A stretch of 44,832 nt of DNA from a phage: sequence record PX055572.1. One strand, written 5' to 3'. Shown one piece after another: positions 6,160 through 41,826 of this stretch (its first letter is position 1; every line of letters begins with the position of its first letter). The translations under genes and the position numbers were made by a program. The notes under the pieces are model-generated. The model had not been told where the DNA came from and did not search any database. It saw nothing but the letters and a program-made list of their open reading frames with translations.

Positions 6160-6186
6160 GACGGCCTCCTCGTTTCGATGTAATGA

Positions 6187-6215
6187 ATAGTACCCTATTA
6201 TATTGGTGTGTGCAA
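6187..6215 (-). promoter_or_regulatory. Promoter G: TTGCAC-N17-TACTAT with AATAG-N4-CTATT palindrome
   Basis: As transcribed: TTGCAC ACACCAATATAATAGGG TACTAT; ~28 nt upstream of small peptide/lipoprotein operon. Confidence 0.55.
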
Positions 6216-12982: not shown

Positions 12983-13535
12983 ACAAACCTAATTTTAAAG
13001 CAATGTCTATAACGTTCGATTTAACGTCACCCGGTATGATGTAGGTGTCGTAATCTTTTACACCACTAACATCATACAGATAGCCACGGCTATCGCCGAT
13101 GAACGTATAGCCGTCACGATGGAGGCGAACGATTTGCACGTCATGCCCTGCGGCGACGATAGGGGCAACTTCACTGGCGAATCCACCGTCGGACACTACA
13201 AAAACTTCGTCGCCGTCAGGCAAGTTTTCAGCAAGATACTTACCGAAATAATCATCGCCGAATACCGGTTTAATGAATTGCTCAGAAATGGCAATCATTA
13301 ACTGGCGGCGGGACAACCCATTAAGAAAACCCTCGGGTTTTTCTTTCCGCGCCCGGTCGTCGTAGCCGTCGAGAAATTCGTGGTAAGCATCCTGGCCTAA
13401 CGCTGCCAAAGCAATATTGAACATTGGATTCTTGAAACTGGTAGTTCCTTTCGCAAAGCCCATTTCTACCAGCGCCATAGCAAGCGTGTCTTTCCCGCAA
13501 CCCGCAGGGCCATTAAGAATAATTACCTTAGCCAC
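12981..13535 (-). CDS. P-loop nucleotide kinase (dNMP kinase / polynucleotide kinase-like)
   Basis: Walker A GPAGCGKDT at N-terminus; 184 aa; adjacent to HAD phosphatase in reverse-strand cassette. Confidence 0.6.
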   Translation of the reverse strand: MAKVIILNGPAGCGKDTLAMALVEMGFAKGTTSFKNPMFNIALAALGQDAYHEFLDGYDDRARKEKPEGFLNGLSRRQLMIAISEQFIKPVFGDDYFGKYLAENLPDGDEVFVVSDGGFASEVAPIVAAGHDVQIVRLHRDGYTFIGDSRGYLYDVSGVKDYDTYIIPGDVKSNVIDIALKLGL

Positions 13536-14023
13536 TATTTATCGCTCCCGTGTGGTTTTAAGTGTGTAGAGTTCCCGTTACAGTCGTATTCGGTAACTGC
13601 GTGTGCGGTTATGCCGAGGTCACGGAAATGCTTTATTACCGCTGGAGAGTCGTCGAACGCACACAAGATTCTTTCCAGTCCGAAAGCACGCAACACCTCT
13701 TCTTTAATTACGATGTCTTTTCTGTTGTCGTGTTTGCTGCGCATGATTAGCGTGTCAAACCTAACGTTATTCTCTCGTAACCATTCGCGAGTCTCCTCCT
13801 CAGCGTCATCACTTCGCCCGGTAAGGATAATTATAGTAAGTCCGGAATGCCACAGTACGCTACACAAATGGATATTGTCGTATATCGGAGCGTCATCTTT
13901 GCAGGCCATGTTAAATGGCTTCCACGCCCACGTTTCTCCGTAGTTATCTTTTGGTAACAGGTGTAAGCGATGGGTACCGTCGGCCAATGTCCCGTCTAAA
14001 TCGAAAATTACAATATCTTTCAT
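13535..14023 (-). CDS. HAD-superfamily phosphatase (nucleotidase / 3'-phosphatase-like)
   Basis: N-terminal catalytic motif DLDGTL (DxDxT), 162 aa; translationally coupled to kinase gene. Confidence 0.6.
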   Translation of the reverse strand: MKDIVIFDLDGTLADGTHRLHLLPKDNYGETWAWKPFNMACKDDAPIYDNIHLCSVLWHSGLTIIILTGRSDDAEEETREWLRENNVRFDTLIMRSKHDNRKDIVIKEEVLRAFGLERILCAFDDSPAVIKHFRDLGITAHAVTEYDCNGNSTHLKPHGSDK

Positions 14024-15150
14024 CCCAGCATCTCCGGTGAAATAGTTAAACGTGCGACCTCGCCATATTCGGCGCTATAAGTAATTACATTTGCACTGCG
14101 GCCCGACATCCATCCGCCGCGAGAGGCGTAGGCGTCTTTAGCCGCTAAGGTGCGGTGTTGCTCAACAATCATGTTACGGCTTTCTACAATCTTCTGGTGG
14201 TGCAGATGGCCTACGTGGGCGTAGCTGTAAACACTCTCGCCGAACGCTTTACGGAACTTGGCAATCATAACCGGTTCGATAGCGTCGAATCGTGCTTTAT
14301 GCCCGTGATGGAAGAACAGCGTCGTTTTGCCGTGTCGCACCATCTTGTAAACATCCGGCGACGTATCGACGAATACACGAGGCTCGTTGTCGTACAGTGT
14401 GCTGAACATCTCCGCCAGCCAAATCATCCCGGATTCGTCGTGGTTCCCCTGAACTATAAGCAAGCGAACAGTTTTATGCTTAACCAGAGCCATATCAACA
14501 ACACGGCGGACCATGCGAATCATGTAGCGGACAAGTTTCTGGTAACGCGTGTCGGCGTCAAGGACATGACCACTAGCCGGTGTAACGGCGTCAAGACTAT
14601 CGAAGTGAGCTAAGTCGCCAAGAAGATTAATAACCCCCGTACCTGCATCCGGTGCTTTCTGAAACGCAGCATCAAACCAACGAGAGAATAAGTCCTCCGC
14701 GATTTTCATATCCCAGTCGTCGCCGCTCTCGTCAGCCCAGGCTAACATACCGAGATGGAAATCAGATACCGTGTAAAGATTGAGTAGTTTATCGTCACGT
14801 TTGGCTCGTGCCGGTTTAACAGGCGCAACGGGCGTAATCTCTGACTTCATGCCCTCTATTACGGCTTTCATCAATTCAACCTGACGTTCGGCATCAGCGT
14901 CGGTCTTAACCCATTGCAACTTAGTGTTGCCGAACTCGTCCACCAGGGACGACGTTCCTTTAATCTTGTAACCGTCTGGTACAAGGTGACTAACGTCGCG
15001 CCCGTGGCCTACGCCTTTCTTAGCCAGCTTCGCTTTACGGATACGAATAACGCGGTCTGAGATTCCGTATTTACGGGCGATATCGATATTCTTCATCCCG
15101 GCGTTCAATTCTTCCTGCAACTGTTCGTCGGTTATTTTCTTCTGGGCCAT
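14020..15150 (-). CDS. Calcineurin-like metallophosphoesterase with N-terminal HTH domain
   Basis: Motifs DFH, GDLAHFD, GNHDE, HHGH, GHLHH; N-terminal 60 aa HTH-like (IDIARKYGISDRVIRIRKAK); start ATG 15150 with SD GAGGAA 7 nt upstream (ORF track extends further 5'). Confidence 0.65.
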   Translation of the reverse strand: MAQKKITDEQLQEELNAGMKNIDIARKYGISDRVIRIRKAKLAKKGVGHGRDVSHLVPDGYKIKGTSSLVDEFGNTKLQWVKTDADAERQVELMKAVIEGMKSEITPVAPVKPARAKRDDKLLNLYTVSDFHLGMLAWADESGDDWDMKIAEDLFSRWFDAAFQKAPDAGTGVINLLGDLAHFDSLDAVTPASGHVLDADTRYQKLVRYMIRMVRRVVDMALVKHKTVRLLIVQGNHDESGMIWLAEMFSTLYDNEPRVFVDTSPDVYKMVRHGKTTLFFHHGHKARFDAIEPVMIAKFRKAFGESVYSYAHVGHLHHQKIVESRNMIVEQHRTLAAKDAYASRGGWMSGRSANVITYSAEYGEVARLTISPEMLG

Positions 15151-15188
15151 GCTTACTTCCTCGTGTTTAGGATTTGTCTTATGGTAGC

Positions 15189-15380
15189 CTACTTCTCTTT
15201 CACGTTCGAGTTGCAAGCCCAGATTAAAATGAATACCCACGGCAACAGAATCCACCCGAGAAATAAGTTAGCCATGAATATCGCCAGCTTTGCTTTATGG
15301 TTACGCATATGTGCCACCAAAAACGGGATAAAATAAACGGCTACAAAAATAATTAAGAAGAACATAGTGATACCGGTCAT
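15189..15380 (-). CDS. Small two-TM membrane protein, superinfection-immunity (Imm)-like
   Basis: MTGITMFFLIIFVAVYFIPFLVAHMRNHKAKLAIFMANLFLGWILLPWVFILIWA; start at internal ATG with SD AGGAG 7 nt upstream; LLGW...WxxxLxWA pattern resembles superinfection-immunity family (from memory). Confidence 0.45.
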   Translation of the reverse strand: MTGITMFFLIIFVAVYFIPFLVAHMRNHKAKLAIFMANLFLGWILLPWVFILIWACNSNVKEK

Positions 15381-15422
15381 AACATAACTCCTGATTTGAG
15401 ATAACATCGTTGGTGTAAGTGA

Positions 15423-15451
15423 ATAGTACGCTATTATATTGGGGAGTGCAA
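15423..15451 (-). promoter_or_regulatory. Promoter H: TTGCAC-N17-TACTAT with AATAG-N4-CTATT palindrome
   Basis: As transcribed: TTGCAC TCCCCAATATAATAGCG TACTAT; ~40 nt upstream of Imm-like gene. Confidence 0.55.
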
Positions 15452-15558
15452 GTAGTGTGCTAGAATAATTTTGCGCCTAGTGTCGCACACGAAAAGCGGG
15501 TGGTTCCCGTCTGGCGCATTTCCTTTAACCAGTAACCTCTTAACCAAAGGATTAAAGA

Positions 15559-38075: not shown

Positions 38076-38309
38076 TTATTCCAGGTCTTCTACAGTAGCG
38101 GTCATTCCGCGAACTTCAGCAACTGCGCTATATTTCCCACCAACATTTTTCACGACACCATATTTAACCAGTACCTTCAACGACCCTTCAATAATGGCGG
38201 AACTATAGTACTTAAAATAACTACGGCGCAAGTCCATAACGCTGCACGACCCTTTTTTACGTGTTAATGAAACGACTGCCGTAAATACGCGTGACTGGAA
38301 CTCGGTCAT
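38076..38309 (-). CDS. Small protein, ends in EDLE
   Basis: 77 aa; C-terminus TVEDLE matches the EDLE tails of the exonuclease and primase-helicase. Confidence 0.4.
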   Translation of the reverse strand: MTEFQSRVFTAVVSLTRKKGSCSVMDLRRSYFKYYSSAIIEGSLKVLVKYGVVKNVGGKYSAVAEVRGMTATVEDLE

Positions 38310-38476
38310 TTTACATTCTCCTTAATCCACGCTTCCACTTTCTCCCGGTCAAACGTACCTGGCTGACGGCGGCCCATAATGCGGATACAACAATCCGGGA
38401 ACTTCCCACTCTTTAACCAGTTATTCAGCGTGCGACGGGTAACCCCGATACGCTCAGCTACCTCATTCTGTGTCAT
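38306..38476 (-). CDS. AlpA-like HTH DNA-binding regulator
   Basis: MTQNEVAERIGVTRRTLNNWLKSGKFP... resembles AlpA/excisionase-type HTH (from memory); first ATG downstream of - strand promoter TTGATT-N17-TATACT; ORF track starts at TTG 38503. Confidence 0.5.
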   Translation of the reverse strand: MTQNEVAERIGVTRRTLNNWLKSGKFPDCCIRIMGRRQPGTFDREKVEAWIKENVK

Positions 38477-38508
38477 CCTCAAGCCCCCATTATCAGTTAA
38501 CAAAATCG

Positions 38509-38537
38509 AGTATACATTGTGAATAATGGGAAATCAA
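38509..38537 (-). promoter_or_regulatory. Leftward promoter TTGATT-N17-TATACT for AlpA-like gene and replication operon
   Basis: -35 (rev) 38532-38537, -10 (rev) 38509-38514, spacer 17. Confidence 0.5.
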
Positions 38538-38712
38538 ACATAATCGCACCTATTGACATTATGAAAATCTTCGTTTAAGGTGCTTTTATATCTTAGTTAC
38601 TTTGATTCTTGTTCACCTTGTAATACCCGCTTGAAACGCAGCGGCGCACCAGCGCCAGCGAAGTGTTAAGCGGCAGATTACTGAACATATGAATTATCGT
38701 AACTTTCCTTCC

Positions 38713-38775
38713 TAAGTATCTCAGGTTGCCCTGGGCAAGCTCTATTCTCATCGACGGCATATCTCTTAAGTATCT
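38713..38775. repeat. Direct repeats TAAGTATCT (x2) in divergent intergenic region
   Basis: cctAAGTATCTcagg at 38713-38721 and cttAAGTATCTgata at 38767-38775. Confidence 0.3.
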
Positions 38776-38813
38776 GATAATTAAAAGTTTCTATAGTTGC
38801 CGTGAGCAATGTT

Positions 38814-38870
38814 GAGAGTACTTCACTCCGCTGGGGTGGGCTAAAGCCCACCCGCTGCGTTGCGTACTCT
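38814..38870 (+). other. Composite stem-loop in divergent intergenic region
   Basis: Outer stem AGAGTAC/GTACTCT enclosing GGGTGGGC-taaa-GCCCACCC; followed by TTTTAAG; no ORF. Confidence 0.35.
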
Positions 38871-38912
38871 TTTAAGAAACGAAAGAATCACAACGGCAAC
38901 GTAACTATTCTC

Positions 38913-38941
38913 TTGCACACCCCAACATAATAGGTTACTAT
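38913..38941 (+). promoter_or_regulatory. Promoter D: TTGCAC-N17-TACTAT with AATAG-N4-CTATT palindrome
   Basis: TTGCAC ACCCCAACATAATAGGT TACTAT; 35 nt upstream of ATG 38976. Confidence 0.55.
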
Positions 38942-38975
38942 TCACTTATAGAAACGAGACAGAGGAGTGAGGGTT

Positions 38976-39164
38976 ATGTTTAAACGCGGTCAGTTGGTGA
39001 AAACAGCATATGGCTTTGGTGTTGTCGGAAAAGAGTCTGTCGTATACCCAGGGTCTTATATCATCCGTTATATCAGGCGGGACGGATTAACTCCTTCGGT
39101 TTATTACGAAGCTAATGAGTTAAAACTCATCGGCAACAATTTTAAATTCAAAGGGGCGAAGTGA
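38976..39164 (+). CDS. Small hypothetical protein
   Basis: ATG 38976 with SD AGAGGAG 8 nt upstream; first gene downstream of promoter D. Confidence 0.45.
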   Translation: MFKRGQLVKTAYGFGVVGKESVVYPGSYIIRYIRRDGLTPSVYYEANELKLIGNNFKFKGAK

Positions 39165-39397
39165 TGCAAATCATAATTACAGATAACACCGTTATCTACG
39201 AAGAAGATGGTGATACTCTCGAGAAAATAGGCGTAAATGTGGGTGATGTTTTCAATGTACTGGATTCCTGTGAGGATGGCTGGTGGATTAAGACAGGAAG
39301 ATACACAATCCCGGTAACTAAGGCAGAAGCGAAGGTATACACAACGGCATCTAATCATGATGCTCGTGCCGACGACTCTGAGGGAGGTTGCCGTTAA
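39164..39397 (+). CDS. Small hypothetical protein (paralog of 39397..39552)
   Basis: Shares IIITD / GVNVGDVF motifs with next ORF; ATG overlaps upstream stop. Confidence 0.45.
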   Translation: MQIIITDNTVIYEEDGDTLEKIGVNVGDVFNVLDSCEDGWWIKTGRYTIPVTKAEAKVYTTASNHDARADDSEGGCR

Positions 39398-39552
39398 TGA
39401 AAATTCGAATAACTGACCGCAGGCTTATAGATTTCGGTATCTCGGTAGGTGATGTTTTTCTGGCGTTCAGCAGCAACCATTATGGTTTTATGATTGAGTA
39501 CAAAGGGTCATTATTGTTCGTGTATCGGGATGAATGCGAGGTTCTGGTATGA
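39397..39552 (+). CDS. Small hypothetical protein (paralog of 39164..39397)
   Basis: MKIRITDRRLIDFGISVGDVF...; 51 aa; verified codon by codon; ATGA coupling on both sides. Confidence 0.4.
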   Translation: MKIRITDRRLIDFGISVGDVFLAFSSNHYGFMIEYKGSLLFVYRDECEVLV

Positions 39553-39710
39553 GAGAAGCATTCGAACGGTGGGCCATCGTCGAGGGTCTGCCGGTTAATA
39601 AGGGTTCGAAGAAAGAGTACCTGAACGTTAAGACGCGTCTCGCGTGGCGGGCGTGGAAAGCTGGTGCGAATGTAATGGCTGGCGCATTTGAGAAGAGAGG
39701 CGATTTATGA
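39549..39710 (+). CDS. Small hypothetical protein
   Basis: 53 aa; verified codon by codon; overlaps neighbours by 4 nt. Confidence 0.4.
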   Translation: MREAFERWAIVEGLPVNKGSKKEYLNVKTRLAWRAWKAGANVMAGAFEKRGDL

Positions 39711-39892
39711 GCAAGTGGATTAAGTGTAGTGAGCGGATGCCGGAGCCTTATGAATACGTTCTTGTAACTGATTGTTTTGTTGGCTGTGAGGTTATGCGTG
39801 TTAATTCAGATGGCTACTGGGGGCCTGCAAAGAGTTTATATCACGGTGATATAACGCACTGGATGCCGTTACCTGAGCCGCCGGAGGTGTGA
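39707..39892 (+). CDS. Small protein with THWMPLPEPP C-terminus (DUF551-like)
   Basis: C-terminal motif recalled as typical of a phage domain of unknown function (from memory). Confidence 0.4.
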   Translation: MSKWIKCSERMPEPYEYVLVTDCFVGCEVMRVNSDGYWGPAKSLYHGDITHWMPLPEPPEV

Positions 39893-40039
39893 TGTTCAAT
39901 AGTTTGGGATTTTACTGAGTGACTTACGCTGCTACACAGCAGCGTATCATTTTTCTCATTTTTGTTCTATTTCACCAAACGCAACAATCGAAGCGACTAT
40001 TGCAGGAGATGCAATAATACAAACACCAATAAAATTTAC

Positions 40040-40068
40040 TTGCACACTGGGATAGAATAGGCTACTAT
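40040..40068 (+). promoter_or_regulatory. Promoter E: TTGCAC-N17-TACTAT with AATAG-N4-CTATT palindrome
   Basis: TTGCAC ACTGGGATAGAATAGGC TACTAT; 32 nt upstream of ATG 40100. Confidence 0.55.
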
Positions 40069-40099
40069 TCATTTACACAAACGAGAGGAGAGACAGAAG

Positions 40100-40447
40100 A
40101 TGAGTAACAAAAACGAAGTATTCGAGTACCTGATTGACCAACTACGGCAGCAGGTAAACAGCAACCAGTGCGAAGACCTGGTGCATGAAGTGCAGTCACT
40201 TAAGAATCAGTTACGTGATGCTTCGGCGCTGGTGGCGGAGTTGCAGGAAGAACTGGGTGCTTCAACTAACACCGTAGTTCGTTTGCGCAAAGAGGTAGCT
40301 AAGTATACTGGTGACACTGGAGAATATATCGACGCCACTGAGCAATCTGGTTGCAGTAAAGATGATACCAGGGAATGTGAGCACGATTGGTACTGGTACT
40401 CCGGTTCCAAGGAACGTATATGCCGTAAATGCGGGGAAGAGAAATGA
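40100..40447 (+). CDS. Coiled-coil protein with C-terminal Cys pairs
   Basis: 115 aa; SD GAGAGGAG; downstream of promoter E; C-terminal CEHD...CRKC. Confidence 0.45.
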   Translation: MSNKNEVFEYLIDQLRQQVNSNQCEDLVHEVQSLKNQLRDASALVAELQEELGASTNTVVRLRKEVAKYTGDTGEYIDATEQSGCSKDDTRECEHDWYWYSGSKERICRKCGEEK

Positions 40448-40647
40448 CTACATTACTTTTCATCTGGGTGCTGTCCGCGGGCCAGATGCAACTGGCGGCA
40501 GCAGAAACGTTTTACTCGATGGAGGCGTGCCAGTCAGCGGCACGCGCTGCAGAGAACGCGCACTTTCTGTTTCAGGGCGACAAGCCCAACGATTCAGAGG
40601 TACGCGCTATCTGCTCACCTAAGAGACTTGGTAAACAGGAGAAGTGA
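40444..40647 (+). CDS. Small secreted protein (signal peptide)
   Basis: MTTLLFIWVLSAGQMQLAAA hydrophobic leader with AxA-type site; ATG overlaps upstream stop. Confidence 0.4.
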   Translation: MTTLLFIWVLSAGQMQLAAAETFYSMEACQSAARAAENAHFLFQGDKPNDSEVRAICSPKRLGKQEK

Positions 40648-40925
40648 TTATGGTTCGGAAATATGAGGTGCGAGGGACTGAATTAGGCGGGGATGCGTTC
40701 TATGAGGATTGGGTTGAGGTCGTTCGCTACGAAGACTACGAGGAACTTGAGCGTAAGTTCAAAGAACTCATGGCGTGGCGTGTGCAGATACTCAATGACG
40801 CTTTCGACTTTTTGACGCGGGCAGAAAAAGCGGAAGCCGAGTTACAGAAATACAAAGACCAGTACCCTGATTACGTCGAGTGCGCGAACTGTGGGTCAGT
40901 TACACATGTGGAAGGGGTGGAGTGA
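40644..40925 (+). CDS. Small hypothetical protein (YEDY-motif paralog A)
   Basis: VVRYEDYEELERKFKEL shared with next ORF. Confidence 0.4.
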   Translation: MIMVRKYEVRGTELGGDAFYEDWVEVVRYEDYEELERKFKELMAWRVQILNDAFDFLTRAEKAEAELQKYKDQYPDYVECANCGSVTHVEGVE

Positions 40926-41152
40926 TGGTACAGAGATACTTATTACAGGGTGGTTTAATAGGGCCGCACGATGAAGGTGATTGGGTAGGTTACGAAGACT
41001 ACGCGAAACTCGAAGCCGAACTTCTGGAAATAAAAGCCGCAGCCCGTTGTCTTGTGCGAGAAGCGAGTAAGGTGTATAGCGACTATAGTGACGTTATAGC
41101 GCCTGAGTTTGTAGACCAGCAAACCATATACGAACTGGGCATTCTGCTATGA
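40925..41152 (+). CDS. Small hypothetical protein (YEDY-motif paralog B)
   Basis: WVGYEDYAKLEAELLEI; ATG overlaps upstream stop. Confidence 0.4.
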   Translation: MVQRYLLQGGLIGPHDEGDWVGYEDYAKLEAELLEIKAAARCLVREASKVYSDYSDVIAPEFVDQQTIYELGILL

Positions 41153-41442
41153 GCCTATCAACTGACATCCTGAAACGAAGCGGCCTTGCGCCGCTGTCAC
41201 CGAGAGCGAAGACACGTATACACAAGCGTCGCCGTAACGTGCTGTACCCAGAGATACAAGAACGGCGTAAAGCTATCCGCGCCTGTGGATTCCAGAACGG
41301 GAAGGCCGTTAACCTCGGTGAGTTTAAAACACAGGAACGCGCAGCTATCGCTAATCGGTTATTTAATTACTGGAAATCGCTGGGATACGATGATATTCCA
41401 TCGAAACCGCAGAGACGACAATACATCTGGCGTCATAAATAA
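41149..41442 (+). CDS. Basic hypothetical protein
   Basis: 97 aa, Arg/Lys-rich. Confidence 0.4.
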   Translation: MSLSTDILKRSGLAPLSPRAKTRIHKRRRNVLYPEIQERRKAIRACGFQNGKAVNLGEFKTQERAAIANRLFNYWKSLGYDDIPSKPQRRQYIWRHK

Positions 41443-41472
41443 ACCGTTATTAAGATAATTCCTAACCGTGGT

Positions 41473-41512
41473 ATCCTCCAGTTACTGCATACTTAATACG
41501 CACCTGGAGGAT
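41473..41512 (+). promoter_or_regulatory. SD-sequestering stem-loop upstream of holin-like gene
   Basis: ATCCTCCAG (41473-41481) pairs with CTGGAGGAT (41504-41512), burying the GGAGG SD; TTG start at 41518. Confidence 0.45.
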
Positions 41513-41517
41513 TCATC

Positions 41518-41826
41518 TTGGATAAATTTACTGAAACAGTGACGGGGTGGCTTCTCGCTGCCGCACTGGTCGGTGGATTGGTCGGACTAAGGCAACATAA
41601 AAAGTCTATATCCGGGCCGATTGACGGACTGGTATTTCTTCTCACCGGCTTCGCGTGCGCCATTTTCGGCGCACCTCTTGCCGCTCAATGGTTTGGTATT
41701 ACTGGCGAGCGCGAGATAGCTGGCCTCGGATTCATCATTGCCATTCTCTGGATGCCTATCTATTCCCGCCTTTCTGGCATCGTATCGGGCGGCGATATTG
41801 CCCGCCCAGGAGGACCGCATGACTGA
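41518..41826 (+). CDS. Holin-like membrane protein (three predicted TM segments), TTG start
   Basis: Three hydrophobic segments; TTG start with SD GGAGG sequestered in a 9-bp stem; immediately upstream of second membrane protein and lysozyme. Confidence 0.45.
   Translation: MDKFTETVTGWLLAAALVGGLVGLRQHKKSISGPIDGLVFLLTGFACAIFGAPLAAQWFGITGEREIAGLGFIIAILWMPIYSRLSGIVSGGDIARPGGPHD

What the first reader, a model, noticed from the sequence alone, without database searches (positions are those of the whole stretch)
38976..41442. Early-region block of small, translationally coupled genes with two paralog pairs: candidate host-takeover or anti-defence genes
Ten small ORFs, mostly joined by ATGA overlaps, follow promoters D and E. 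39164-39397 and 39397-39552 share ITD and G(V/I)(N/S)VGDVF motifs (tandem duplication). 40644-40925 and 40925-41152 share YEDY(E/A)xLE. One ORF (40444-40647) carries a signal peptide and one a THWMPLPEPP tail. Small diversified early genes are where phages usually encode inhibitors of host defence and metabolism.
Basis: partly seen in the sequence, partly recalled or inferred. Interest (0 to 1): 0.5.

Follow-up and report, generated by a model that had tools for sequence, protein, structure and literature searches.

The report
Mosaic small-gene region of a Kagunavirus phage
This is the accessory small-gene region of an E. coli Kagunavirus phage: ten real, tightly packed genes in two operons, of mixed function (a likely host-nuclease inhibitor, a likely DNA-binding regulator, an exported protein, two duplicated pairs), so it is a fairly ordinary region rather than one anti-defence block.

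Summary
Ten plus-strand ORFs (38976-41442) form two operons. Each follows a copy of a 32-nt promoter motif, and an intrinsic terminator separates them. All eight internal junctions overlap by 1 or 4 nt. Both proposed paralogue pairs are the only significant pairs among the 45 possible.

The window is a whole Kagunavirus (Guernseyvirinae) genome, and all ten ORFs have homologues annotated as hypothetical in relatives. dN/dS of about 0.03-0.6 (two pairwise values near 1) shows they are coding.

The block is heterogeneous.
- **Subfamily core:** P7 (exported, two invariant Cys) and P10, which precedes the lysis genes.
- **P10:** an AP2-like DNA-binding protein, so probably a regulator.
- **P6:** its N-terminal 55 aa resemble the T7 gp5.9 RecBCD-inhibiting DNA mimic, fused to a zinc knuckle. 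This is the only real anti-defence lead.
- **P2/P3:** SH3-like.
- **P5:** DUF551.
- **P8/P9:** an acidic family with a hypervariable loop and no known relatives.

Gene bodies are swapped between relatives at short conserved junctions.

Novelty: a new member of a known kind. Expression timing ("early") is unproven.

The parts
38913..38944 (+). Promoter motif copy ('promoter D'): TTGCAC-N17-TACTAT inside a conserved 32-nt core
   Evidence: 4 copies in the window against 0 expected. 53-nt repeat shared with 40034-40086. Same four sites in Golestan. The equivalent site upstream of the first small-gene block in fBC-Eco01 is annotated as a PHIRE-predicted phage promoter.
38976..39164 (+). P1, 62 aa, basic (pI 9.9). 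Conserved ends MFK(K/R)GQLVKT ... LIGNNFKFKGxK with a hypervariable middle
   Evidence: Present in 10 of 10 relatives at only 37-52% identity. Family listing. phrog_12538, unknown function.
39164..39397 (+). P2, 77 aa, acidic. SH3-like beta-barrel (aa 1-60) plus a low-confidence, probably disordered tail (aa 61-77)
   Evidence: AF2 pLDDT 79. The Foldseek top 50 are all SH3 domains, probability 0.92-1.0. 25 of 26 profile hits in the PDB are SH3. The GenBank note on the fPoEco01 homologue says SH3/FeoA by HHpred 95.7%. The tail is shared by at least 4 unrelated N-domains in relatives.
39397..39552 (+). P3, 51 aa. Shorter SH3-like paralogue of P2
   Evidence: Smith-Waterman z=7.2, 0 of 5000 shuffles. 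BLASTP 8e-6. A 63-aa variant in Bas72 carries an insertion that bridges to P2. The homologue in phage G AB-2017 is annotated as FeoA family. Present in 5 of 10 relatives at 96-100% identity, plus a 36%-identical variant in Bas72.
39549..39710 (+). P4, 53 aa, basic. N-terminal 43 aa conserved, C-terminus variable
   Evidence: Present in 10 of 10 relatives. dN/dS 0.04-0.63 in nine comparisons and 1.22 against Golestan. phrog_15836, unknown function.
39707..39892 (+). P5, 61 aa, stand-alone DUF551 domain (THWMPLPEPP tail)
   Evidence: Pfam PF04448, 58.4 bits against a cut-off of 22. Three allele classes in relatives. DUF551 is a portable domain found in the Ea22 V2 variant and in YfdS (PMC10834534). 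No similar solved structure.
39925..39956 (+). Intrinsic terminator ending operon 1 (9-bp stem, then a T-rich tail)
   Evidence: The region is conserved in all 10 relatives.
40040..40071 (+). Promoter motif copy ('promoter E')
   Evidence: Phage Jersey has TTGACA-N17-TACTAT at the same place, annotated there as a sigma-70 promoter. The equivalent site in fBC-Eco01 is annotated as a PHIRE-predicted phage promoter.
40100..40447 (+). P6, 115 aa, acidic. gp5.9-like coiled-coil N-domain (aa 1-55), a linker, and one C-x-H...C-x2-C zinc knuckle
   Evidence: phrog_9014 'Gp5.9-like inhibitor of RecBCD', E=4.8e-4; 12 of 21 family N-domains hit it. Top PDB hit is 8b1r_P gp5.9, E=0.038 for the single sequence and 2.6e-4 for the family profile. 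0 of 3000 heptad-preserving shuffles reach the observed score. Family architecture with 1-4 zinc-knuckle repeats.
40444..40647 (+). P7, 67 aa. Signal-peptide-like N-terminus (LLFIWVLSAG...AAA|E) and two invariant Cys
   Evidence: Found in 475 phage records, nearly all named for Salmonella or Escherichia hosts, on 40-45 kb genomes in the listed rows. dN/dS 0.07-0.13. phrog_3766, unknown function.
40644..40925 (+). P8, 93 aa (or 91 from ATG 40650), acidic. MV(R/Q)(K/R)Y-loop-YEDYxxLE N-domain, helical insert, conserved C-terminus ...YVECANCGSVTHVEGVE
   Evidence: C-terminal 32 aa are 88-94% identical in relatives whose N-domain differs. dN/dS of the C-terminus 0.12-0.38.
40925..41152 (+). P9, 75 aa, acidic. 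Paralogue of P8 (same N-domain, different C-terminus)
   Evidence: z=5.9, 1 of 5000 shuffles. phrog_29624 matches the P9 N-terminus and the P8 C-terminus. The N-domain DNA is 90% identical to the first-slot gene of JSSK01 and XY1.
41149..41442 (+). P10, 97 aa, very basic (pI 11.2). AP2-like DNA-binding domain (aa ~41-80) lacking the first strand. Last gene before the holins.

Best explanation
This is the rightward accessory arm of a Kagunavirus genome. It starts at the phage's central divergent control region and runs into the lysis cassette. It consists of two transcription units of translationally coupled small genes, each driven by a promoter that resembles a host sigma-70 promoter. The genes have mixed functions; this is not a single anti-defence block.

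**Operon 1 (P1-P5, closed by an intrinsic terminator)** is an array of single-domain proteins that differ between relatives: SH3-like P2 and P3, DUF551 P5, and basic P1 and P4.

**Operon 2 (P6-P10)** is a scaffold whose gene order is also found in Salmonella phage Jersey:
- P6: a gp5.9-like acidic coiled coil fused to a zinc knuckle. I infer it blocks RecBCD or another DNA-end- or DNA-binding host complex by DNA mimicry.
- P7: an exported 47-residue protein with two Cys. I infer it acts in the envelope, in lysis control or superinfection exclusion.
- P8 and P9: two acidic paralogues with a hypervariable loop. I infer they are binders whose loop sets specificity; target unknown.
- P10: an AP2-like DNA-binding protein. 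I infer it is a transcription regulator, possibly acting on the repeated promoter motif or on lysis/late genes.

Diversity is generated by homologous recombination at short conserved junctions (gene ends, ribosome-binding sites, and the promoter repeat), including exchange between the paralogues.

**Shown:** coding status, operon anatomy, paralogy, fold and family assignments, the mosaic pattern. **Inferred:** expression timing, all molecular targets, and the recombination mechanism.
For: **Identity and context:**

**Anatomy:**

**Coding:**

**Core versus variable genes:**

**Mosaic with conserved junctions** at 38880-39005, 39120-39170, 39340-39400, 40021-40103 and 40833-40938.

**Cassette swaps and paralogue domain exchange:**

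**P6 and gp5.9:**. The gp5.9 mechanism comes from PMC9836394.

**P10 and AP2:**

**P2 as SH3:**

**P5 as DUF551:**

**The other two copies of the promoter motif** also drive non-structural genes: a 72-aa membrane protein whose Golestan counterpart is annotated 'immunity to superinfection', a weak metallophosphoesterase match (20.9 bits, below the 27-bit cut-off), a PNKP-type phosphatase, and a 114-aa unknown. This fits a co-regulated, non-virion gene set.

**Old sensitivity:** Kagunaviruses show variable sensitivity to the Old system. Old is lethal in recB-deficient cells and is described as surveying RecBCD-compromised cells (title and abstract of 10.64898/2026.07.10.737580). This is compatible with a phage-encoded RecBCD inhibitor.
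Against: - No expression data exist for any Guernseyvirinae phage in the searched literature, so 'early' and the operon boundaries are inferred.
- No terminator was seen between P10 and the holin, so operon 2 may be part of a lysis or late transcript.
- The gp5.9 match covers only about 28 coiled-coil residues at E~1e-4. Only 2 of the 6 RecB-contacting acidic residues in the aligned stretch are acidic in P6.
- tblastn with the P6 N-domain found no record named as a T7-like phage.
- P10 itself does not reach any Pfam threshold and lacks the first AP2 strand. Its model has mean pLDDT 66.
- P1, P4, P7, P8 and P9 have no informative homologues.
Confidence: 0.6

Rival explanations
1. One reading: the whole block is an early array of inhibitors of host defence and metabolism, and each small protein neutralises a host target.
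For: - The genes are small, acidic (P2, P5, P6, P8 and P9 have pI 4.3-4.9), promoter-proximal and highly variable between close relatives.
- P6 resembles gp5.9.
- Tandem duplications with hypervariable loops fit arms-race evolution.
Against: - P10 is an AP2-like DNA binder.
- P7 and P10 are core genes with dN/dS about 0.1.
- Nine of the ten ORFs have no hit to any known anti-defence family.
- Kagunaviruses are highly sensitive to restriction-modification systems.
- Expression timing is unknown.
Confidence: 0.2
2. Operon 2 is functionally part of the lysis/late module rather than an early host-takeover unit. P10 switches on, or anti-terminates, lysis and late transcription. P7 is a periplasmic regulator of the holin-endolysin pathway, antiholin-like. 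P6, P8 and P9 are accessory.
For: - The order P6-P7-(MVQRY gene)-P10-holin-holin-endolysin is the same in the ten Kagunavirus loci and in Salmonella phage Jersey.
- No terminator was found between P10 and the holin.
- A hairpin (41468-41516, -20 kcal/mol, z=-2.6) pairs the holin ribosome-binding site, which suggests regulated holin translation.
- P7's weakly hydrophobic, Gly/Ala/Ser-rich N-terminus resembles signal-anchor-release (SAR) domains. This comparison rests on my own knowledge of T4 RI and was not tested.
Against: - The promoter motif in front of operon 2 is the same one that drives clearly non-lysis genes elsewhere in the genome.
- The gp5.9-like P6 fits an early anti-nuclease role.
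- There is no sequence similarity between P7 and any known antiholin or spanin.
Confidence: 0.15
3. Some or all of the ORFs are chance reading frames or untranslated.
For: They are very short (51-115 aa). P10 has no recognisable Shine-Dalgarno sequence. XY1 and G AB-2017 leave the P7 homologue unannotated.
Against: - Purifying selection on P3-P8 and P10, with only two pairwise values near 1.
- The reading frames are kept in 312-475 phage records for P6 and P7.
- Confident fold predictions for P2 and the P10 core.
- A Pfam domain in P5.
- Overlapping stop/start codons at every junction.
Confidence: 0.03

Closest known systems
T7 gp5.9 (RecBCD inhibitor; PDB 8b1r; PHROG 9014)
   Same: P6 aa 26-53 aligns with gp5.9 aa 22-49 (SLKNQL...VAEL). 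That is the C-terminal part of the acidic parallel coiled coil that contacts the RecB arm. The P6 N-domain is acidic (my count from the sequence: net charge -6). P6 is the first gene of a promoter-proximal operon.
   Different: P6 is 115 aa against 52. It carries a linker and a zinc knuckle, and relatives have 1-4 knuckle repeats. Only 2 of the 6 aligned RecB-contacting acidic residues are kept. The dimeric state and the target are untested.
AP2/ERF DNA-binding domain (Pfam PF00847), as found stand-alone or fused in phage and bacterial proteins and in plant and apicomplexan transcription factors
   Same: The P10 family consensus is PGV...W(R/E)A...G....LG.F.T.ERA.IA. The profile hits only AP2 structures. 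P10 is predicted to form a beta-hairpin plus helix, and it is strongly basic.
   Different: P10 and its close Kagunavirus relatives lack the first strand. They have a family-specific N-terminal MSLATDILK motif and a C-terminal GYxDIPxKPxxRxY motif. No nuclease or integrase domain is attached. P10 is below the Pfam threshold.
Hyperplastic early regions of T4-type phages, shuffled at repeated promoter-stem-loop cassettes, and the mosaic junctions of lambdoid phages. Both comparisons come from my own knowledge and were not checked in papers here.
   Same: Arrays of small ORFs of unknown function. Different gene bodies sit between short conserved boundary sequences. A repeated promoter cassette is present.
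   Different: This is a siphovirus of a different lineage. The junctions here lie mostly inside gene ends and ribosome-binding sites, so unrelated proteins share the same N- or C-terminal peptides.
Lambda/Stx-phage exo-xis region proteins (Ea22 V2 variant) and YfdS of the cryptic prophage CPS-53, which carry DUF551
   Same: P5 is a full-length DUF551 domain in an accessory region of small ORFs.
   Different: P5 is the bare domain (61 aa), without the coiled-coil or other parts of Ea22. The function of DUF551 is unknown.

Membership tests
T7 gp5.9-like RecBCD inhibitors | Detectable sequence similarity to gp5.9 beyond coiled-coil composition | tested here: met
   phrog_9014 E=1.4e-4 to 4.8e-4. 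The family profile against the PDB puts gp5.9 first at E=2.6e-4, and the next coiled coil scores 8e-3. 0 of 3000 heptad-preserving shuffles reach 24.4 bits. The match covers only about 28 residues.
T7 gp5.9-like RecBCD inhibitors | Conservation of the acidic residues that form ion pairs with RecB/RecC (D21, E24, E36, D38, E39, E45 within the aligned part) | tested here: not met
   Using the alignment and Table 1 of PMC9836394: D21->E25 and E36->D40 stay acidic. E24->V28, D38->S42, E39->A43 and E45->Q49 do not.
T7 gp5.9-like RecBCD inhibitors | Small (about 50 aa) single-domain acidic protein that forms a parallel coiled-coil dimer | tested here: inconclusive
   The N-domain is acidic and helical by sequence, but P6 has an extra linker and zinc knuckle. 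The oligomeric state could not be modelled.
T7 gp5.9-like RecBCD inhibitors | Inhibits RecBCD DNA binding | not testable with these tools
   Needs biochemistry or genetics.
AP2 domain (PF00847) | Profile-level sequence similarity to AP2 domains | tested here: met
   The family profile A3 hits only AP2/ERF chains in the PDB (1e-4, 2e-3, 0.37, 0.56). 17 of 58 members hit Pfam AP2, best E=1e-5. The P10 profile retrieves proteins that contain several AP2 domains.
AP2 domain (PF00847) | P10 itself reaches the Pfam gathering score | tested here: not met
   No Pfam hit even at E<=10.
AP2 domain (PF00847) | Three-stranded sheet packed on a helix | tested here: inconclusive
AP2 domain (PF00847) | Sequence-specific DNA binding | not testable with these tools
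   Needs a gel-shift (EMSA) or ChIP experiment.
SH3-like fold (P2, P3) | Five-stranded SH3 barrel | tested here: met
   P2 model pLDDT 79. All top-50 Foldseek PDB hits are SH3 domains, with target-normalised TM-score 0.4-0.7 except one 278-residue multidomain chain at 0.16. P3 is linked to P2 by paralogy. Pfam SH3 scores are below threshold (14.6 against 30 bits).
DUF551 (PF04448) | Pfam gathering score over the full domain | tested here: met
   58.4 bits against 22, profile positions 1-68 of 68.
Sec signal peptide (P7) | Positively charged n-region, hydrophobic h-region, small residues at positions -3 and -1 | tested here: inconclusive
   The h-region LLFIWVLSAG and the AAA|E site (A-x-A or A-x-T in relatives) are present and conserved, and two Cys in the mature part are invariant. 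The n-region (MTT) has no positive charge. No predictor was available.
Known anti-restriction / anti-defence families (Ocr, ArdA, Lar and others, as represented in Pfam and PHROGs) | Significant profile match | tested here: not met
   The only hit is Lar_restr_allev at E=0.051 for the P8 C-terminus, below threshold. Nothing else was found in Pfam, PHROGs or NCBIfam. PADLOC was not searched because it models defence systems, not anti-defence proteins.

The most novel reading that the evidence does not exclude
Three things would be true together.
1. The P6 family (more than 1100 protein clusters in public data, found here only on Guernseyvirinae-type phage genomes and contigs) is an unrecognised branch of gp5.9-type coiled-coil DNA mimics. 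It has been extended by a variable number of zinc-knuckle repeats that retarget or regulate the mimic.
2. The neighbouring MVQRY/YEDY paralogues, with their hypervariable loop, are a diversifying family of host-factor binders.
3. The AP2-like P10 is the phage's own switch acting on the four-copy promoter motif.

Together these would form a compact, conserved 'takeover plus regulation' operon specific to this phage subfamily.
Probability: 0.25. Interest if true: 0.55.

Novelty: new member of a known kind. Interest (0 to 1): 0.35.

Why it matters
Kagunaviruses and Jerseyviruses are common phages of E. coli and Salmonella. Many of the related isolates compared here were recovered on clinical, multidrug-resistant or food-borne-pathogen hosts, and Kagunaviruses have been proposed as small models for synthetic biology. 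About a fifth of their genes are annotated 'hypothetical' in exactly this region.

This analysis gives three of those genes testable functions:
- a gp5.9-like DNA mimic, possibly a RecBCD inhibitor, which could also explain the variable Old sensitivity;
- an AP2-like regulator placed before the lysis genes;
- an exported protein with two invariant Cys.

It also shows which genes are core and which are swappable cassettes. That helps with genome minimisation, host-range engineering, and the choice of candidates for anti-defence screens. It does not reveal a new kind of system.

Tried and rejected
**Searches that found nothing useful**
- Rfam scan of the whole window: nothing in the region, one hit elsewhere.
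- tRNA scan: none.
- NCBIfam: only sub-threshold coiled-coil and chance matches, to P5, P6 and P8.
- Pfam at E<=10 for P1, P3, P4, P7, P9 and P10: nothing.
- PDB sequence search with P10 alone or with the close-homologue profile: nothing. Only the broader family profile worked.
- PDB search for DUF551: no structure.
- MVQRY/YEDY family profile against the PDB and Pfam: nothing significant.
- tblastn with the P6 N-domain against phage genomes at E<=1: no record named as a T7-like phage, only phages named for Salmonella, Escherichia and a few other enterobacterial hosts.
- Literature: no transcriptome or proteome for Guernseyvirinae, and the CM001 cell-free study is not in the library.

**Ideas rejected**
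- P7 as a spanin: it has no lipobox and no C-terminal transmembrane segment.
- P1 as a third paralogue of P2 and P3: z=0.5 and 1.1.
- The GenBank product names on homologues ('glycosyl hydrolase', 'valyl-tRNA synthetase', 'langerin binding protein', 'dextransucrase', 'lactocepin', 'HslV peptidase'): these look like spurious annotation transfers onto 40-110-aa proteins.


Full report
**What the window is.**

The 44.8-kb window is a complete genome of a Kagunavirus (subfamily Guernseyvirinae), a small E. coli siphovirus. The nearest GenBank phages (BEU33, phiEc3, K-01, K-02, Golestan) are about 92-93% identical over 75-90% of the right-hand 20 kb. None covers 80% or more of the region of interest, which already marks it as mosaic.

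In the annotated relative Golestan the region has a clear position. To its left are the leftward replication genes: an HTH regulator, helicase-primase and polymerase. To its right is the long rightward arm: these small ORFs, two holins, the endolysin, more small ORFs, terminase and the virion genes. The finding therefore lies at the head of the rightward arm, next to a 470-bp divergent intergenic region.

**Checking the observation.**

All ten ORFs are present on the + strand. Their starts agree with the annotation of relatives.
- Every junction within an operon overlaps: four ATGA, one GTGA, two TGATG and one TAATG.
- Five ORFs follow a promoter-like element at 38913-38944. They are closed by a good intrinsic terminator (39925-39946 plus a T-rich tail).
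- Five more follow a second copy of the element at 40040-40071.
- The two copies belong to a 53-nt direct repeat. Its 32-nt core, TTGCAC-N11-ATAGGNTACTATTCA, occurs four times in the genome against zero expected, and at the same four places in Golestan.
- In Salmonella phage Jersey the copy before the second operon reads TTGACA-N17-TACTAT and is annotated as a sigma-70 promoter.
- The other two copies drive leftward islands inside the structural module. One island holds a 72-aa membrane protein (its Golestan counterpart is annotated 'immunity to superinfection'), a weak metallophosphoesterase match (below the Pfam cut-off) and a PNKP-type phosphatase. The other holds a 114-aa unknown.

The motif thus marks a set of non-virion genes. 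Whether they are 'early' is inferred; I found no expression data.

**Are the ORFs real genes?**

Yes. Against ten related loci, dN/dS is 0.07-0.13 for P7, 0.03-0.18 for P10 and 0.05-0.24 for P5. Informative comparisons for P2, P3, P4, P6 and the P8 C-terminus give 0.04-0.63. Two values lie near 1: P4 against Golestan (1.22) and a 53%-identical partial P2 match (0.92). P1 gave no usable comparison and P9 only two. The P7 and P6 reading frames are kept in 475 and 312 phage records respectively.

**Paralogues.**

- P2/P3: z=7.2, 0 of 5000 shuffles.
- P8/P9: z=5.9, 1 of 5000 shuffles.

Both alignments start at the initiator Met.

*P2 and P3.* P2 folds as an SH3 barrel (AF2 pLDDT 79). All top-50 PDB matches are SH3 domains, and the profile hits are SH3 as well. 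It has a low-confidence, probably disordered acidic tail. P3 is a shorter copy. A 63-aa variant in phage Bas72 carries the missing loop and bridges the two. Independent GenBank notes call the homologues SH3/FeoA-like.

*P8 and P9.* They belong to a family seen in all ten Kagunavirus loci compared and in phage Jersey. The slot between P7 and P10 holds one or two genes (one locus has a single member followed by an unrelated gene). Family members begin M(IM)VQRY, continue with a 10-25-residue hypervariable loop, and then YEDYxxLE. In the ten Kagunavirus loci the first gene always ends ...YVECANCGS(V/I)T(H/R)V.G... The N-domain of the window's P9 is 90% identical at the DNA level to the first-slot gene of phages JSSK01 and XY1. 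The paralogues therefore exchange domains. The family has no detectable relatives.

**Mosaic anatomy.**

A blastn comparison with ten relatives shows short segments shared by all or nearly all of them:
- 38880-39005: promoter, leader and the first codons of P1
- 39120-39170: end of P1 and start of P2
- 39340-39400: end of P2 and start of P3
- 39548-40018: P4, P5 and the terminator
- 40021-40103: promoter E
- 40100-40246: P6 N-domain
- 40459-40665: P7
- 40833-40938: end of P8 and start of P9
- 41148 onward: P10 and the lysis genes

Between these segments the gene bodies differ. As a result, unrelated proteins share end peptides. At least four unrelated N-domains carry the same C-terminal tail, TASNHDARADDSEGGCR(E). 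P1 alleles share both ends but not the middle. At least about 20 gene families occupy this 2.5-kb region across ten phages, by my own count.

The simplest mechanism is homologous recombination at the conserved junctions. This is an inference.

**P10 is an AP2-like DNA-binding protein.**

Close homologues gave nothing. A profile search of 1.8 billion representative proteins then found 72 relatives, including proteins that contain several AP2 domains.
- A 58-member family alignment has the consensus PGV...W.A...G....LG.F.T.ERA.IA.
- 17 members hit Pfam AP2.
- The family profile hits only AP2/ERF structures in the PDB: WRI1 at 1e-4 and TEM1 at 2e-3.
- P10 itself lacks the first strand and is below Pfam thresholds.

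P10 is very basic (pI 11.2), was in all ten relatives compared and in phage Jersey, and is the last gene before the holins. A regulatory role is my inference.

**P6 resembles T7 gp5.9.**

The conserved N-terminal 55 residues match the PHROG family 'Gp5.9-like inhibitor of RecBCD' (E=1.4e-4 to 4.8e-4). Against all PDB sequences, gp5.9 is the top hit: E=0.038 for P6 alone and 2.6e-4 for the family profile, about 30-fold better than the best generic coiled coil. No plain shuffle and no heptad-preserving shuffle of the gp5.9 segment reaches the observed 24.4 bits (0 of 3000 each).

The matched part is the C-terminal coiled coil that binds the RecB arm (PMC9836394). However, only two of the six aligned contact residues stay acidic. 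P6 also carries a linker and a C-x-H...C-x2-C knuckle, which relatives repeat one to four times.

I therefore rate 'works like a gp5.9-type DNA mimic' at about 0.4-0.5, and do not file P6 as a gp5.9 family member. Kagunaviruses show variable sensitivity to the Old system. Old is lethal in recB-deficient cells and is described as surveying RecBCD-compromised cells. That is compatible with P6 inhibiting RecBCD but does not prove it.

**The remaining genes.**
- P5 is a bare DUF551 domain. DUF551 is a portable domain of unknown function, known from an Ea22 variant and from YfdS.
- P7 has a conserved h-region and an A-x-A type cleavage site, plus two invariant Cys. These fit an exported, disulfide-bonded 47-residue protein, though the n-region is uncharged.
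- P1 and P4 are basic and uninformative.

**Verdict.**

Kagunaviruses also remain highly sensitive to restriction-modification systems. The region is a typical mosaic accessory-gene region of a well-sampled phage group. The AP2-like and gp5.9-like assignments appear to be new, since every GenBank record examined annotates these genes as hypothetical or with evidently spurious names.

Noticed in passing
window 6184-6215 (-), 15420-15451 (-), 38913-38944 (+), 40040-40071 (+): A 32-nt promoter-like motif is far more conserved than a sigma-70 promoter needs: its spacer contains a TATAAT-like hexamer and ATAGGNTACTATTCA. It occurs four times, always in front of non-virion genes, at the same four sites in Golestan, and in similar form in Jersey. 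It could double as an operator for a phage regulator such as P10 or the HTH protein at 38306-38503 (-).
   Followed up: partly
window 15470-15534 (+): Rfam match to int-alpA RNA (RF02996, 36.6 bits against a gathering score of 35.8, E=4.7e-4). It lies in the intergenic region between the leftward Imm-like/phosphoesterase/PNKP island and the tail assembly chaperone gene.
   Followed up: no
window 41468-41516 (+): A hairpin (MFE -20 kcal/mol, z=-2.6 against shuffles) has a 3' arm that pairs the GGAGG ribosome-binding site of the first holin gene (TTG start at 41518). This may provide translational control of the holin. No terminator was seen between P10 and the holin.
   Followed up: partly
window 38504-38975: The 470-bp divergent intergenic region is itself variable among relatives: 38500-38770 matched only one of ten. 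It holds a GC-rich stem-loop (about 38834-38854), which appears to correspond to a feature annotated as a terminator in fBC-Eco01, promoter-like sites on both strands (38517-38544 +, 38537-38509 -), and small ORFs that some relatives annotate. A small RNA or leader peptide is possible.
   Followed up: no
window 40340-40447 and P6 homologues (alignment A5): The zinc-knuckle module ECxHxW...CxxCG at the end of P6 varies from 1 to 4 tandem copies among homologues (101-201 aa). Some homologues also have a duplicated coiled-coil segment. This is repeat expansion and contraction inside a single small phage gene.
   Followed up: partly
window 39340-39400; loci L007-L010 and proteins P0114-P0116: The 17-residue tail TASNHDARADDSEGGCR is attached to at least four unrelated N-terminal domains in different phages. 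It may be only a recombination junction that carries the next gene's ribosome-binding site, or it may be a shared functional peptide such as a docking or degradation tag.
   Followed up: partly
window 15189-15407 (-), 14020-15255 (-), 13535-14023 (-): A leftward island inside the tail module encodes a 72-aa membrane protein (its Golestan counterpart is annotated 'immunity to superinfection'), a weak metallophosphoesterase match (20.9 bits, below the 27-bit cut-off) and a PNKP-type phosphatase domain protein. This may be a nucleic-acid repair or anti-defence set co-regulated with the region studied.
   Followed up: partly
L001 2615-2791, L001 2859-3165, and equivalent positions in L002-L009: Relatives carry one to three extra small genes between P5 and P6 that the window lacks. 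They include a CxxC...CxxC zinc-ribbon protein annotated 'NrdC-like thioredoxin' and a very acidic 42-45-aa protein right after promoter E. In the window, P6 follows the promoter directly.
   Followed up: partly
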